64,000 nt of DNA from Octopus vulgaris. Its lineage: Eukaryota. The stretch covers positions 36,580,001 through 36,644,000 of the forward strand of contig OX597836.1 of assembly GCA_951406725.2 (NCBI GenBank). Direction: 5' to 3'. The notes beneath the pieces are model-generated. The model worked only from the letters and a program-made list of their open reading frames with translations, did no database searches and was not told the origin of the DNA. A program made the translations under genes and the position numbers. This document shows, in pieces, positions 7,916 through 63,668 of this stretch (its first letter is position 1; each line of letters opens with the position of its first letter).

Positions 7916-8579
7916 TATATATATATATATATATGTATGTATAGAAGAAGCAATAGCTAACGTTTTTAGGCTGCTATTTCGAAACTTCGGTATGTGGTAA
8001 AGCAAATCTTTGCTGAACCCTAATTATTAAGTGTATATATATATATATATATATATATATATATATATATATATATATATATTATGTATATATATATATA
8101 TATATATATATATATATATATATATATATATATATATATATATACATGCACACACACATATATATATATATATTTATATATATACATGCACACACACACA
8201 CATATATATATATATATATATATATATATATATATATATATATTTATATATATATATATATATATATATATATATATATAATTCTGTATATCTTACTAAA
8301 CATAATTTCCTTGTAGAAAGCCGTAGAACTGCGTAATACGTATTGAGAAAGCTTTTTAAGTCGCTCTAGACAAATACTTTAGTATTCTGGTCTTCTATAC
8401 GATATCCAGATTCAGACATAGAAATTGCTATTCTGAAACAAAACCGCCTCATTCGCCGATGGTGAGTGCATATGTATTATGAATATATAGTAAATGGTGC
8501 ATGTATATATATATATATATATATATATATATATATATATATATATAATCAAAATAAGCAACAAGTATATGCAAGGTAG

Positions 8580-8648
8580 AGTAGTACAATTGTTTCATGC
8601 TACTTCATATTCTTAAACACTGTTGCTCTTCGAGCAATCTTCAGCCAC
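8580..8648 (-). ncRNA. Minimal type I hammerhead ribozyme motif (inverted partner of 8832)
   Basis: Minus strand: gtgg CTGAAGA ttgctcgaagagcaa...agcat GAAA caattg TA ctact. Confidence 0.65.
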
Positions 8649-8831
8649 ATTTAGAGATTTTCCAATTAAACGAACAATGCACATTCTTATCCCTATTTCA
8701 TTTGCCAAGGTTATAAAGACGGTAGATATATAGACAGATAGGTTGATTTCATTCTTAATAACATGATAGTAGTATATTCACTCTCCGTCTGATAAGAATG
8801 TGCATTGTCCGTTTAATTGGAAAATCCTATA

Positions 8832-8919
8832 AGTGGCTGAAGATTGCTCGATATTTTAAAACTGATGTAATACTTACAGTGTTTAATAAAATGAAGTAGC
8901 ATGAAACAATTGTACTACT
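8832..8919 (+). ncRNA. Minimal type I hammerhead ribozyme motif
   Basis: agtgg CTGAAGA ttgct...agcat GAAA caattg TA ctact: stem I agtgg/ctact, palindromic stem III ACAATTGT, GUA cleavage triplet. Confidence 0.7.
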
Positions 8920-9177
8920 CTACCTTGGATATCCTTGTCGCGTATTTTGATTATAATCACCCCATTTGATTTATATGGATAATACCATACACAATTCTGG
9001 TGCCTTTAACTTAAGTACCATATTCATCTGAATCTAAATTTTGCTCAACTTAAATATATATATATATATATATATATATATACATACGTACTCATACGTA
9101 CACACACACACATACATACAAACAGACACACACACACATAAATATGAGTTTTTGTAGTAAGCAATGTCAATACTTAC

Positions 9178-9280
9178 AATAATAATAATAATAATAATAA
9201 TAATAATAATAATAATAATAATAATAATAAGAAGAAGAAGAAGAAGAAGAAGAAGAAGAAGAAGAAGAAGAAGAAGAAGA
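9178..9280. repeat. (AAT)n(AAG)n microsatellite
   Basis: Directly visible. Confidence 0.97.
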
Positions 9281-58845: not shown

Positions 58846-60318
58846 GATTTTAATGATTCTAACAATTTATATTAATGTTGTTGTTTTTTAATAACTACCT
58901 GTATTCTTATCTTTAATGCATTGAATTACATACTGTACATATGTATTTTATTATGGTTGTAGTTTTGTTAATTGTATAAGACAACATTCTAATATCCTAA
59001 AGCTGATAAACCAACTAATGTGTTTCTCCATTTTCTTATTATATATATATACACACGCACACACACACACATACATACATACATACATACATATATATAT
59101 ATATATATATATATATATATATATACAATTAGCTTACAGCAGTGGGCTAACAATATACGTAATGTCTACGCTTATTACTTGGTGACCACTTGCATGTCCC
59201 GTAGCTAATTGAATACTTGACTAAATTAAAATATGGTATAGTTCATTTAAAAGAACCAGTGCTTCTCTAAAATACACAAATAAGTTTAGTCAAAAATGTG
59301 CTACGATAGAATTGGGTGTAGAAAGTCTTGCTTCACCTTCATAGCACATTAGCTTCCATATTTCTGTGTCATATTCGCTGTAGATTTGCACGGGGTACAA
59401 GCGTACTCTCTAAAATTTTCTGTGGGTCAATGAAGACGCTTTTGACATCCTACGTGGAATTTGGGTTTGTATCCCCGAAGCAAACTTCGTTCCCACACCT
59501 TTTTGCACTTAAATATATAGATCCTAATGAAAGGAATCCTGTTTGTATGTACCGTATAATATAACTTCCGGGGTAAAACGTAATCAAACCAGAGACAGAC
59601 GAACGCTTGATTTCTTCTTTAAATCATTTTTGTTCTCTTACTGTAGTGTTCTCAGCCGTTCTCAGGAGATCTCTACGACGGTATTAGAAAAGCGCAAGCC
59701 ATAAGAATTCTTAAGCATTCTTATTTAGCAGAATTTGGCCAAATCGGAAGAAGCCCAACACATTATATAATCATTGGTGATGTGAAACAAAAACAACAAA
59801 AAATAATGATTTATTACAGAGAAGCTTTCGTAAATGATCTTAATTCAAAAAATTTACTAAATATCAAAGTAAAATAAAAACAAAATATAATCTATTCTAC
59901 ATAAGATTTCGTATAAGATCTAATTTGATAAATTTAATACTAATTCTAACTGAACATTGGTGATGTGAAACGAAAACGAAAGAAAAATTTTGCGACGAAA
60001 TATCATCAATAAGAGAAGCAACAAAGAATAAATTTGTACTTAATCCATCTCATTTCTCTTGATTTTCAAAAAAGAAGCAATTATTATAATTAAATTCTAC
60101 TGAAGCTAGCTAAACGAACGGAATCTGCGAATCGCGTCAAAGCTGATATATTAAAGACATTGAGTTGGGTGGCAAAACTGTCAAATCTGAGGAAAATTAT
60201 AGCTCCAAAAACTACAGTTATGCCATAATATGCGCGTTTATGTGCATGTATGTATGCATACGCACAGACATACACGCATGCAATCACAAAATGTAAAGAT
60301 TACGATCTACTGAAAGTA

Positions 60319-60850
60319 TTTGGTTGTCCGGAAAGTTCGTGCCGATTTTTAAAGGAGAGAAAAATGTCAATAAATACGTACCATTACATTTTTAATCAAC
60401 CAAATATGAAACATTCTATTGCACAACGCGTTTCCATCTTTCAGTTAACTTGAAAATACCCTCTCCACAGAATTGAGGTGGTTTCATGGCAAAGAATTCA
60501 TCAAGGTATCTTTTTACATCTTCCAAGAAATTGAAATTTTTAACATTAAGACTATTCTGCAGAGACCTGAATAAATGGAAATCCGAAGGAGCAACATCTG
60601 GTGAATATGGAGCGTGGAGTAACATATCCCAGCCGAGTTGCAGCAATTTTTCTCTAGTTCCCAAAGCATCAAGTGCCGAAAATGAACTTTCTTATTTTCT
60701 ATTTTATAGGGTTACAGAATTAACACAGGTTATAGGAACATAAACTTCTTCCACGAAAAGATAGCTTAAACTGTGCTCTAAATGGAGGTGTAGTCAAATC
60801 CTATTTTATGGACTCAAACATGTTCTAAAATAAGTCGAAAGATAAGTACT
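60319..60850 (-). pseudogene. Internally deleted mariner (DD34D) element
   Basis: TA|tttggttgtccggaaagttcgtgccga TIR; 60416-60664 encodes LGWDMLLHAPYSPDVAPSDFHLFRSLQNSL...GIFKLTERW. Confidence 0.9.
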
Positions 60851-60869
60851 GGTTGGCACAGGTTGTTAG

Positions 60870-61185
60870 TACTTGTTCGCACTCAGTCAGTTATGATGAC
60901 GAGGGGTCCAGTTGTCCCGTCAATGAAACAGCTTGCTCGTGTAATTAACTCTCACCCGAACACTCCATATCCTTAACGTGGTTCTCAGGAAGATTCAGCG
61001 TGACACGAAATGTGACAAAGATGGCGCTTTGAAATAGAGTTACAACTCATTTTTGCCATTTTTGTGAACTGAAATTACGTGAAATAAAGTGTGTTGCTGA
61101 AGTGCACGACGTGCCGCAGGGAATCGAAATCATTACCTTCTAATCACGAGTCGAATTCCCTAACCACTAAGCCACACGCCATCAC
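60870..61185 (-). mobile_element. SINE family C, diverged
   Basis: aacagcttgctcgtg..attcagcgtgacac..gggaatcgaa..ccctaaccactaagccacacgcc. Confidence 0.75.
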
Positions 61186-63489
61186 ATGTTAATTAGTATA
61201 AACAGATAAAAAAGAGAAAGACATTTGGTACAGGAAGACGTGGGTATCCCGTGTTTTCAGCAAAGGAGTTTATTTTACACCCCCAGATTTTTGCAGAGTT
61301 TTTCAAACTACACCGATACCACACACACACACACACACACACACACACACACACATACACACTCACACACACACACTCACACACACACACACAGCTCCAT
61401 CACCATAAATGTTTTTTCTCAATTCTTTTCAAAATTGTTTCGGGATTTCCACGGAGTTTTTCTGGAAAATATATATATATTTTCATAATTTTAATTTTGT
61501 TAGAAAATCATCCCCCTTACCCTCCACCACATTTCATGCCAACTTTGCAGATATTATTGAACTCGTTTGCGCATTTACGCACTCATGAATTCTGGATGAA
61601 GCGATACATGAGATGAAAGAGGACTCAAAATAGATGCTCAACATTCTTGAAATAAGAAGAAAATTTGACATGTTATGTTTTCTAAAATTCAGGTTTTTTT
61701 TTACACCAATCCCTCGTTTACCCTATTTCGATAGAGATACACGATGGATATGCGTCGATGCCTATTGAACCAGGAAATGAAATTATTATAACCTCGATGT
61801 GGGCGCATGATATTCTACATATAACAGCTAAAACTCCGAAAAATGATTTTTTCAAAAACATTTTTCTTTTTCATAACATCGCCTCTTCTGTTTTTCGGTT
61901 TAATGAAACTCTTTGTCACTTCATACACAGAATCTGTTAACCATAACACCCATAATAAACATTTCTTCTTCAAAGTGCCTAATATTTAATCTAAGTTCTT
62001 CACAATCAGTGTATACCCTAAACACCCTTCAAAGTTAACGATATTGCAAATATGCTATCCGAAGGCACATTAATGTTCTTTATAATATTTGCCAATATAT
62101 TATCCCTTACAAATCCGCTTAAAAGGAATAATATCTAACTTCAAAATACCAGTACACGAGCTATATCTTTAGACTTCCACTTCTTATTCGCTAGTACACC
62201 AGGTTCAATTAATTAAGAAAACTACAACTCCCTACCTGCATTGTTTACTACTTAGATACACACGAATAAGCATTATACATGTGGCAGTTTCTCTTTAGTA
62301 AGCAAACAAATATGAAGTGCGAAAGAAATTTACTATTGTTATATGTTATGCTTGAGAGATACATTATATGTGTTTGATGCGAGAATATTGATTATTTTCT
62401 ACAGATTTATGATATTTGACCGGGGAATGCTTTAGTAAAATTTCTGACTTTGTACAAAGTAGAAAACTGAAGAAGATATTTTTTTTTATTTGTTATATGT
62501 CCTACTGATGTCTGTATTCACTCTTGCATGTACAAATCTATGAACAAATTTATCCCATATGCGACCCTCTGGTCATGTGAATATCACTATGACTCCATTC
62601 TGTAACACAACGTTCTACAATTCCTGACGATATTGCATGACTTAATACAGGCGAACATGAATGTTAGTTTACTCAAGTCGTTGGCACTTGAATAATTATA
62701 TCTAATATACGAGTGGAGGAAGCTTTATAGGTGCATAACATATTCAGGTGTGACATTGTCTTTTAATAATGGACAAAGTTCAGACAATTCATATCGTGTA
62801 GAATTACCTCGACATAAACAAACATTCAAGTGTAAAGACATATGCATATGTGCGTAAGTATGCATATATATATATATATATACATGTGTGTGTGTCTTTT
62901 GTTTGTATGGTTGTATGTATATGTACGTTTTAAATGTATATATCATTTTCCGAACTATACCGAGCATGTTCTAGCGTAGAGTAGTAATAACACTTACAGT
63001 TGAATACATCATAGAATTTCATGTGGCATATATTTTGAAATTTACTTTCAGTTTTAAGAAATGTTTTCTGTTTACGCAATAGATTTTATGGGGGATGAAT
63101 ATAAAATGAAATATGATGCTATACATTTCAATATATTTAGTTCAATATCTCAATACCGATTTCTATAAACGAAATCATACAACTACAATTTCGCAATAAG
63201 TTCTCTGGTATGTAATTGTAATAGTATTATATACTGCCCATTAATAGTAAGTATTGTAAGCGAAACACAGAGTGATGGATTTAAATTGACCCTAGACATC
63301 AGTGACATGCAAAATTCATCGATTTAACATCAACCAACTACATTGCCGTTAAATATTTACATCTGATTATACATATCACTTTATTTTGAAGTATCATATA
63401 TATATATATATATATATATATATATACATACACACACACACACACATATATATATATATATATATATATATATATATATATATATATAT

Positions 63490-63668
63490 GTAAAGTTAAT
63501 TCAAACATGAAAACAAAGAGAAAACACAACAACGTGAGGACGTGGAACAAGTATAGTATTATTGGACGCTCAGGAAAGGAAAGAAAGAAGGAGGATTTAA
63601 TGTTTCGAGCAGAGCTCTTCGTCAGAAACATAGGAAAAGGAAAGATCCAAGGAAGAGAAGACGCAAAA
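63490..63668 (-). mobile_element. PLE-derived end with minimal hammerhead-like motif (63596-63628)
   Basis: Minus strand: ttt CTGACGA aGAGC tct GCTC GAAA cattaaa; copy of 38816. Confidence 0.72.

What the first reader, a model, noticed from the sequence alone, without database searches (positions are those of the whole stretch)
8544..63668. Many unrelated short non-coding elements each carry a minimal hammerhead ribozyme, most docked at (TA)n
Seen: at least six sequence-unrelated families share the layout stem I-CUGANGA-stem II-GAAA-short stem III-UH-stem I' (8832/8580, 19409/33030, 25411, 26215, 38883/63596, 48640), plus half or variant motifs (34441, 42199, near 48140, 58698). Stem III is usually a self-complementary palindrome (ACAATTGT, ACGATCGT, ACAGCTGT, ATATAT), and most elements abut (TA)n. 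Known: minimal type I hammerheads with palindromic stem III occur in Penelope-like pLTRs and retrozymes and are thought to cleave as dimers. Inference: this genome hosts a diverse, largely unannotated set of non-autonomous ribozyme-bearing PLE derivatives with microsatellite targeting, at roughly one motif per 5-6 kb in this window.
Basis: partly seen in the sequence, partly recalled or inferred. Interest (0 to 1): 0.85.

Follow-up and report, generated by a model that had tools for sequence, protein, structure and literature searches.

The report
Hammerheads on truncated Penelope-like element ends
The small hammerhead-ribozyme motifs are real and very common in this genome, but they are likely the leftover tail ends of several protein-coding Penelope-like jumping genes that land in TA repeats, a known arrangement rather than a new class of non-coding elements.

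Summary
Observation confirmed. Nine canonical type I hammerheads lie in the window (0.16 in shuffles). Stems covary across 33 motif clusters. Two tight patterns give 35,593 and 46,315 genome-wide matches, against 2,663 and 0 for reversed controls.

The 'non-autonomous, non-coding' reading fails. Longer copies of all six families lead upstream, on the ribozyme strand, into the RT/GIY-YIG ORF of a Penelope-like element (PLE). The link is strong for B and C, moderate for A, D and E, weak for F. B has intact 778-aa copies with the ribozyme in both pLTRs, and the window holds B coding sequence.

The short pieces are 5'-truncated, often fold-back PLE ends at (TA)n. Hydra-clade PLEs with this ribozyme and target are published, including an octopus family. 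The scan found the same on other genomes.

Window density is about three times the genome average (17 per 400 kb). Cleavage was not tested.

Residual interest: very abundant families carry 'invariant'-core changes (A6U, U4C, U3-A8), and family B targets (TA)n without the linker cysteines proposed to do so.

The parts
8544..8790 (-). Family A, short-tail arm of a head-to-head fold-back insertion; hammerhead core 8644, cleavage base 8585; ends at (TA)22
8790..9055 (+). Family A, long-tail arm; hammerhead core 8837, cleavage base 8914; ends at (TA)n. 3' end of a Hydra-like PLE with a ~0.9-kb 3' UTR
   Evidence: ORF link in L039 and a related family in L356
18479..18879 (+). Remnant of the family G (Neptune-type) PLE ORF: linker and GIY-YIG start
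   Evidence: tblastn 66-72% identity, E 1e-37
18896..19045 (.). Fold-back of two B-type 3' ends (half hammerheads, GAAA side) tail-to-tail around (TA)21
19058..19695 (+). Family B relative: endonuclease C-terminal coding remnant, 3' UTR, hammerhead (core 19415, cleavage base 19487), long tail to TA
22448..22606 (+). Degenerate Hydra-like endonuclease C-terminal remnant
   Evidence: tblastn E 5e-12
23239..23539 (-). Old B-like 3' end with a degenerate hammerhead
25240..25591 (-). Family C: young 5'-truncated 3' end of a Hydra-like PLE with a ~2.2-kb 3' UTR; hammerhead core 25476, cleavage base 25414
26052..26160 (-). Inverted partial arm of the family D insertion
26173..26325 (+). Family D: old truncated 3' end of a GIY-YIG-bearing PLE; minimal hammerhead core 26218
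32358..33947 (-). Family B partial tandem: ORF 3' part (33946-33320, with an internal deletion), pLTR with hammerhead (core 33109, cleavage base 33036), then the first 144 codons of the next ORF copy (32789-32358), ending at (TA)n
33967..34141 (-).
6048..6190 (-). Further degenerate G ends at 11595-11743 and 12082-12197
34269..34601 (.). 333-bp fold-back with a half hammerhead (GAAA side) on each arm at 34441+ and 34429-; parent element not identified
38814..39030 (+). Family E: truncated 3' end of a Neptune-type PLE with a ~2-kb CA-rich 3' UTR; minimal hammerhead core 38886, cleavage base 38912
41799..42098 (.). Degenerate fold-back of an A-related subfamily
42199..42235 (-). U3-A8 core-variant hammerhead of a further repeat family; same core type as the intact Neptune-type family N
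48135..48175 (-). 5'-truncated half hammerhead of a further family whose full motif occurs elsewhere in the genome
48600..48745 (+). Family F: old truncated 3' end, probably of a Hydra-like PLE; hammerhead core 48643, cleavage base 48716
55093..55145 (+). Further hammerhead (core 55097, stem I 2 bp here); the family forms a fold-back pair in L127
63446..63661 (-). Second family E copy; hammerhead core 63625, cleavage base 63599

Best explanation
The motifs are type I hammerhead folds in the 3' UTR/pseudo-LTR of several Penelope-like retrotransposon families, and the short elements in the window are likely dead-end, 5'-truncated copies of those protein-coding elements. SHOWN: the motifs and their covariation; dozens of distinct motif families; PLE ORFs upstream on the same strand in longer copies; intact 778-aa (family B, Hydra-like) and 753-aa (family N, Neptune-type) ORFs; two discrete 3' ends per family; docking at (TA)n; head-to-head fold-backs. 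INFERRED from PLE literature: the GIY-YIG endonuclease nicks (TA)n, and the RT starts at one of two internal sites 35-200 nt downstream of the hammerhead. Copying usually aborts within a few hundred bases. Because the hammerhead lies that close to the start of copying, almost every aborted copy keeps it, and long 3' UTRs (0.9-2.2 kb) keep the ORF out, so the pieces look non-coding and unrelated. Priming on both strands gives the fold-backs. INFERRED, untested: the ribozyme cuts pLTR-ORF-pLTR read-through RNA only as a dimer through its palindromic stem III and probably with help from the PLE protein; single truncated copies would be mostly inactive.
For: [quoted passage not shown] The window has ORF end, hammerhead, ORF start. 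Family C: L186 and L187 are 94.7% identical over 2,896 nt from the endonuclease to the hammerhead, with RT upstream in L187. Family A: L039 runs collinearly from an endonuclease C-terminus (E 1e-12) through ~920 nt to the motif, L058 shares it from the ORF end, and a related family has the same endonuclease 1.3 kb upstream. Family D: a GIY-YIG-like end in L100/L292 and L120/L293. Family E: an endonuclease 46% identical to family G (E 4e-17) 2,016 nt upstream in L328, with L290 sharing 1.7 kb of UTR. Family F: the same ORF end at an inversion junction (L251) and collinear (L252). 5' ends spread from about -12 to -2,900 nt, and 3' ends fall in two classes (A +40/+140, B +50/+200, N +100/+130). 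53 of 55 head-to-head junctions join arms of one family. TA docking: A 37/45, B 33/36, G 21/30, N 16/27, E 33/68 against a background of 0.097; 25 of 30 pattern-only loci against 0.197. Structure was not imposed by the search pattern: stem I of at least 3 bp in 26 of 30 (permuted mean 7.1, max 13); the first stem I pair forms in 33 of 33 clusters (13 C-G, 10 G-C, 7 U-A, 3 others); in 15 B-like motifs 89% of cells pair, with 34 double changes (0 of 500 shuffles). Monomeric stem III does not fold, while palindrome duplexes give -7.4 to -13.1 kcal/mol for A, B, C and F. Literature: PMC4209133, PMC8557442, PMC11167929.
Against: The ORF link rests on one directly collinear locus each for A and E. 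For F it rests on two interrupted loci. For D the similarity to my reference proteins is weak (E 0.07). Only 3 of 30 unbiased hammerhead loci have sense-strand PLE coding sequence within 1.5 kb upstream, which fits heavy truncation with long UTRs but also fits some families being non-coding. Family E has a sharp 5' boundary: 23 of 30 copies (automatic threshold; 22 by eye) stop within a few bases of one site. TA docking is under half in C (9/29), D (8/27) and F (18/60). The palindrome duplex is weak for E (-4.1) and negligible for D (-0.4). Many copies have non-canonical cores, so catalysis cannot be assumed. Pfam found no family in the B protein. No cleavage data.
Confidence: 0.87

Rival explanations
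1. Some families (E is the best candidate, then F) are true non-autonomous, fixed-length hammerhead elements copied in trans by PLE proteins.
For: 885 exact matches to a 23-mer next to E's 5' boundary; 22-23 of 30 such copies stop there. Four loci show a hammerhead-bearing end joined head-to-head to a different PLE family (L045, L099, L151, L328). A 2026 preprint argues that animal retrozymes derive from PLE pLTRs (abstract to methods read).
Against: 7-8 of 30 E copies extend further, one to an endonuclease ORF. Long and short copies are intermixed on the tree (6 changes against 6.3 shuffled; starred branches force at least 3; 27 of 30 rows used, 200 nt, mostly weak support). The boundary sequence TATGTG resembles the (TA)n/(TG)n target, so recurrent microhomology joining would explain it (inference). 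No tandem E copies in the 30 loci.
Confidence: 0.1
2. The motifs are inherited relics without current catalytic role; the fold is kept for another purpose (RNA dimerisation or binding of the PLE protein) or not at all.
For: 36 of 49 sampled B copies, including those in the four intact-ORF loci, have U4C; 32 of 32 sampled G copies have A6U. In the anole PLE, cleavage was not needed for insertion in vitro and no RNA-seq reads began at the site (PMC11167929). Naiad PLEs spread without canonical hammerheads (PMC8557442).
Against: Cores are canonical in A, C, D, E and F. The C3-G8 to U3-A8 double change recurs in several families, a known activity-preserving covariation (PMC3088659). Stems covary. 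This rival concerns function only and is compatible with the truncated-PLE origin.
Confidence: 0.3
3. Chance matches in AT-rich, repeat-rich DNA.
For: A descriptor with any one core mismatch gives 9 against 2.65 in shuffles (1 of 300 as high), so loose variants such as 58698, 40201 and 61582 can be chance. The descriptor was tuned on the window.
Confidence: 0.01

Closest known systems
Hydra-clade Penelope-like elements (Craig et al. 2021, PMC8557442), including Hydra-1_Obim of Octopus bimaculoides
   Same: Short single ORF with C-terminal GIY-YIG, DKT motif, CxxC and CxH around conserved E and N, no CCHH, (TA)n target. Hammerhead in the 3' region with palindromic stem III and often a U.U or G.C start of stem II (File S2). 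Fold-back and tail architecture.
   Different: Stem II/loop II is much longer here (44-63 nt between the boxes) than in the listed Hydra motifs. 3' UTRs reach 2.2 kb. Family B has RWL for RWK, lacks the CxCX5C linker and mostly carries U4C. Dozens of motif families in one genome, against one listed for octopus.
Minimal hammerheads (min-HHR) of metazoan PLEs (Cervera & de la Pena 2014, PMC4209133)
   Same: Loop-less or tiny palindromic stem III, extra nucleotide at 9.1, G10.1-C11.1, U3-A8 covariant, dispersed single copies 'probably related to truncated PLEs', pairs on opposite strands 100-700 bp apart. Families D, E and G have this form.
   Different: Counts are higher (tens of thousands per pattern, against 2,000-9,000 reported there). 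The main family has A6U, which the parts I read (1 and 2 of 4) do not mention.
Neptune-clade PLEs
   Same: Families G and N: RVT_1 (E 5e-9, 1e-7) and GIY-YIG hits, a CX2-5CxxC linker upstream of the endonuclease, microsatellite targeting (features as described in PMC8557442).
   Different: Clade assignment is by motif only; no phylogeny with reference proteins.
Non-LTR retrozymes (Cervera & de la Pena 2020, PMC7229834, search listing only; bioRxiv 10.64898/2026.07.22.740005)
   Same: Type I hammerhead, non-coding appearance, PLE connection.
   Different: Retrozymes are tandem fixed-length monomers. The window copies are dispersed, variable in 5' end, head-to-head, and continuous with ORFs in longer copies.

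Membership tests
Type I minimal hammerhead | Core CUGANGA ... GAAA ... UH in the right order and spacing | tested here: met
   9 window motifs. A6U, U4C and U3-A8 variants exist in other copies and families
Type I minimal hammerhead | Stems I and II pair and covary | tested here: met
   stem II base is only 2 bp or starts with a mismatch in several window copies
Type I minimal hammerhead | Short palindromic stem III suited to dimer formation | tested here: met
   7 of 9 in the window; central dinucleotide self-complementary in 26 of 33 clusters
Type I minimal hammerhead | Self-cleavage at H17 | not testable with these tools
   no raw RNA reads were available
EN+ Penelope-like element | Single ORF with RT and C-terminal GIY-YIG upstream of the pLTR | tested here: met
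   intact for B and N; long fragments for C and G; endonuclease ends for A, E and F; weak for D
EN+ Penelope-like element | Partial tandems forming pLTRs, inverted 5'-truncated arm, optional tail | tested here: met
Hydra clade (family B) | DKT instead of DKG; CxxC and CxH around E and N; no CCHH; under 3 kb; (TA)n target; hammerhead | tested here: met
Hydra clade (family B) | RWK motif | tested here: inconclusive
   B has RWL; five of its aligned homologues have RWK or RWR
Hydra clade (family B) | CxCX5C linker | tested here: not met
   absent in B, present in its database homologues and in L186, degenerate in family C. B is therefore called Hydra-like, not filed as a member
Hydra or Neptune clade | Placement in an RT phylogeny with reference families | not tested
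   no reference PLE proteins were on hand
Neptune clade (families G, N; E by similarity) | CX2-5CxxC linker upstream of GIY-YIG | tested here: met
   G and N ORFs. E's copy is truncated before the linker; D unassigned
Non-LTR retrozyme | Tandem fixed-length non-coding monomers, each with a hammerhead | tested here: not met
   no such array among the tandem-repeat rows shown for the window (150 of 239); variable 5' ends. One ~534-bp triple of another family was seen
Non-autonomous PLE derivative | Fixed 5' end, own clade, no coding parent in cis | tested here: not met
   a minority of such subfamilies is not excluded

The most novel reading that the evidence does not exclude
The most successful PLE families in this genome run on hammerheads that break the 'invariant' core. 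A6U is fixed across four N7 subfamilies of the main Neptune-type family (about 30,000 copies by extrapolation), and U4C is carried by the youngest intact Hydra-like subfamily, while stems and the dimer palindrome are kept. These would be natural protein-assisted ribozymes, or a fold co-opted for RNP dimerisation. Family B would also show that (TA)n targeting does not need the linker zinc finger, and rare fold-backs joining two clades would show that two different PLE particles can build one insertion.
Probability: 0.2. Interest if true: 0.6.

Novelty: new member of a known kind. Interest (0 to 1): 0.3.

Why it matters
As a class it is known: PLE pLTR hammerheads, truncation, fold-backs and (TA)n targeting are published, for octopus too. 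What this genome adds is scale and natural variation. There are at least about 79,000 excess matches to two tight patterns, and roughly 110,000-175,000 motifs by extrapolation from a 400-kb sample. They come from dozens of families, several with intact young ORFs, and with fixed core substitutions. That gives a ready panel for the open question of what PLE hammerheads do, and a counter-example to the idea that the linker zinc finger directs (TA)n insertion. It also warns that short 'unknown' or SINE-like repeats at TA tracts in such genomes may be PLE ends.

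Tried and rejected
Rfam scan: no hammerhead family among the 150 of 265 rows shown, only hairpin/miRNA look-alikes; uninformative. Strict descriptor missed 7 of the 9 motifs. Pfam on eight window ORF fragments and on the B and C proteins: no PLE domain hit, so identity rests on motifs, tblastn and homologues. 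I first read family E as a fixed-length non-autonomous element (note) and dropped this. A Neptune-type ORF 7 kb upstream of one E copy (L289) proved to be a different family (N) with its own hammerhead. In L099 and L151 the adjacent Hydra-like ORF belongs to another family and was not used as the parent of D or E. One of the two mixed junctions is an artefact of a SINE inside my F reference. 58698, 2202, 40201 and 61582 were rejected as unsupported. Lunse et al. 2017 is not held; I know it only from a review's citation and recall, and it may already describe such core variants. Searches for prior description: 'octopus/Penelope/hammerhead', 'hammerhead/A6U/natural variant' (no listed hammerhead paper with A6U; A6C is known), 'octopus genome/Penelope'; PMC13282606 does not contain 'hammerhead', 'ribozyme' or 'Hydra' in its main text (supplements not read).

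Full report
SETTING. The window is G000:C23:36,580,001-36,644,000 of a 2.8-Gb assembly in 227 contigs. It is 34% GC and dense in microsatellites. No tool named the organism. An octopus is likely, by inference from genome size, repeat landscape and an Argonauta homologue of the main protein.

1. OBSERVATION. A strict descriptor found 2 motifs. Allowing a mismatch at the base of stem II found 7 (shuffles 0.11). Because the descriptor was tuned on the window, I applied it unchanged to 40 arbitrarily placed 10-kb regions: 17 hits against 1.0 shuffled; with U4C, A6U and U3-A8 cores, 26 against 0.75. The window (9 and 11 hits) is about three times richer than that sample.

Two whole-genome pattern counts gave 35,593 matches for the long-stem-II type (reversed control 2,663) and 46,315 for the minimal type (control 0). 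The first pattern does not require pairing in stems I or II. Even so, 26 of the first 30 loci have a stem I of 3 bp or more (permuted mean 7.1). In 33 sequence clusters the first stem I pair always forms, as C-G, G-C or U-A in 30 of them, and the centre of stem III is self-complementary in 26. An alignment of 15 B-like motifs has 89% paired cells and 34 double changes (0 of 500 shuffles; related sequences can inflate this control, but slid structures fall to 38-50% paired).

2. WHAT THEY ARE. The decisive clue is in the window. On the minus strand 33946-33320 and 32789-32358 encode the end and the start of one protein, with the 33109 hammerhead between them. This is the partial tandem that forms a PLE pseudo-LTR. 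[quoted passage not shown]

I then followed each family upstream in about 30 genomic copies. C runs through 2.2 kb into a related RT-endonuclease ORF, with two loci 94.7% identical over 2,896 nt. A runs through about 0.9 kb into an endonuclease end in L039; a related family has the same end. D ends a GIY-YIG-like frame in two loci, with weak similarity. E runs through 2 kb of CA-rich UTR into an endonuclease 46% identical to that of family G in L328. F is tied to a Hydra-like ORF end in two interrupted loci, the weakest link. Two more families emerged: G (Neptune-type, A6U core, four window ends plus a coding remnant at 18479-18879) and N (intact 753-aa ORF, U3-A8 core).

Architecture matches PLEs. 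5' ends are scattered. 3' ends fall in two classes per family. Docking at (TA)3+ is seen in A 37/45, B 33/36, G 21/30, N 16/27, E 33/68, C 9/29, D 8/27 and F 18/60, against 0.097 background (these samples are best hits, not random draws). 53 of 55 head-to-head junctions join one family. Against this reading, only 3 of 30 unbiased loci show coding sequence within 1.5 kb upstream, and E has a sharp 5' boundary in 22-23 of 30 copies. Long and short E copies are intermixed on a tree, however (6 changes, shuffled 6.3; three short or deleted rows left out; weak support), which favours a recurrent truncation site that resembles the target repeat.

3. HOW IT LIKELY WORKS. Shown here: anatomy, targets, two 3' ends, fold-backs, intact ORFs. 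From the literature: a purified anole PLE protein nicks AT-rich DNA on both strands and starts reverse transcription at two internal RNA sites, which explains the optional tail. Its hammerhead cleaves only with protein and is not needed for insertion in vitro (PMC11167929, parts 1-2 of 4 read). Metazoan PLE hammerheads were inactive as monomers and weakly active as dimers (PMC4209133, parts 1-2 of 4). Inferred: copying starts 35-200 nt downstream of the hammerhead and usually aborts early, so the motif is the part most often left behind. Long UTRs hide the ORF. In tandem transcripts two copies would pair through the stem III palindrome (duplex -7.4 to -13.1 kcal/mol for A, B, C, F; no monomer fold; weak for E and D) and cut the precursor. 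Cleavage itself is untested.

4. COMPARISON. Craig et al. 2021 (PMC8557442: section 11, passages, and part 2 of 59 of the supplement) describe the Hydra clade with DKT, CxxC/CxH, canonical hammerheads and (TA)n targets, and list an Octopus bimaculoides family. Their motifs have the same palindromic stem III and U.U start of stem II as families A and C. Family B meets most features but lacks the CxCX5C linker that its homologues carry, so I call it Hydra-like. G and N carry the Neptune linker and RT/GIY-YIG Pfam hits. Cervera & de la Pena already reported thousands of dispersed minimal hammerheads as probable truncated PLEs, opposite-strand pairs and the U3-A8 core. The elements are not retrozymes by the tandem-monomer criterion. 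Five earlier notes of this scan on other genomes reach the same reading (seen after I had formed mine; not independent support). None exist for this genome.

5. NOVELTY. New members of a known kind. The points I did not find in print (searches; Lunse et al. 2017 not available and possibly relevant) are three. First, the fixed A6U core: 32 of 32 sampled G copies and, by my hand count, 66 of the first 100 rows, with all four bases at position 7. Second, U4C in 36 of 49 sampled B copies, including the intact ones. Third, strong (TA)n docking by B without linker cysteines. U4C and A6C are known as low-activity natural variants (PMC3088659 passages; PMC7151607 abstract).

6. VERDICT. Observation confirmed. 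Interpretation partly supported: PLE origin and TA targeting yes, non-autonomous families no. Confidence 0.87, interest 0.3.

Noticed in passing
L031-L034 (G000:C5, C1, C13); window 32358-33947: Family B, young with intact ORFs, lacks the CxCX5C linker found in its homologues yet docks at (TA)n in 33 of 36 copies; the linker had been proposed to mediate that targeting.
   Followed up: partly
L045:1406-1907, L151, L099, L328: Head-to-head junctions between arms of different PLE families, even Neptune-type with Hydra-like. Either two different particles built one insertion, or one inserted into the other with later deletion.
   Followed up: partly
genome-wide; window 6152 and 34075: The commonest minimal hammerhead has A6U in the core, with all four bases at position 7.
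   Followed up: partly
G000:C1:5011305-5012441 (rows): Three identical hammerheads 534 bp apart on one strand, of the family seen truncated at window 48140: a short head-to-tail array that could be retrozyme-like or a multi-pLTR insertion.
   Followed up: no
window 34269-34601: Near-perfect 333-bp fold-back (98%) with a half hammerhead on each arm and a longer (11-nt) palindromic stem III; parent family not found, one partial relative in L133.
   Followed up: partly
window 52660-53216 and 17477-17586: Further long fold-backs around (TA)n tracts; not examined.
   Followed up: no
window 6914-7479 and 39529-40119: A ~570-bp repeat pair (87%) rich in TA; not examined.
   Followed up: no
window 26467-27000, 50754-51171, 37998-38412, 40913-41332, 44072-44489 and others: Abundant ~180-bp and ~410-bp SINE-like repeats, the first in tandem units of 183 bp.
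   Followed up: no
window 60416-60691 (-), 20777-21175 (-), 26876-27328 (+), 9148-9603 (+): ORF fragments that look like mariner/Tc1 transposase, another DNA transposon and LINE C-termini (by eye and recall; no Pfam hit).
   Followed up: no
window 18166-18340, 21903-22161, 24673-24924, 15528-15722: An old dispersed repeat with four diverged copies (66-71%), unidentified.
   Followed up: no
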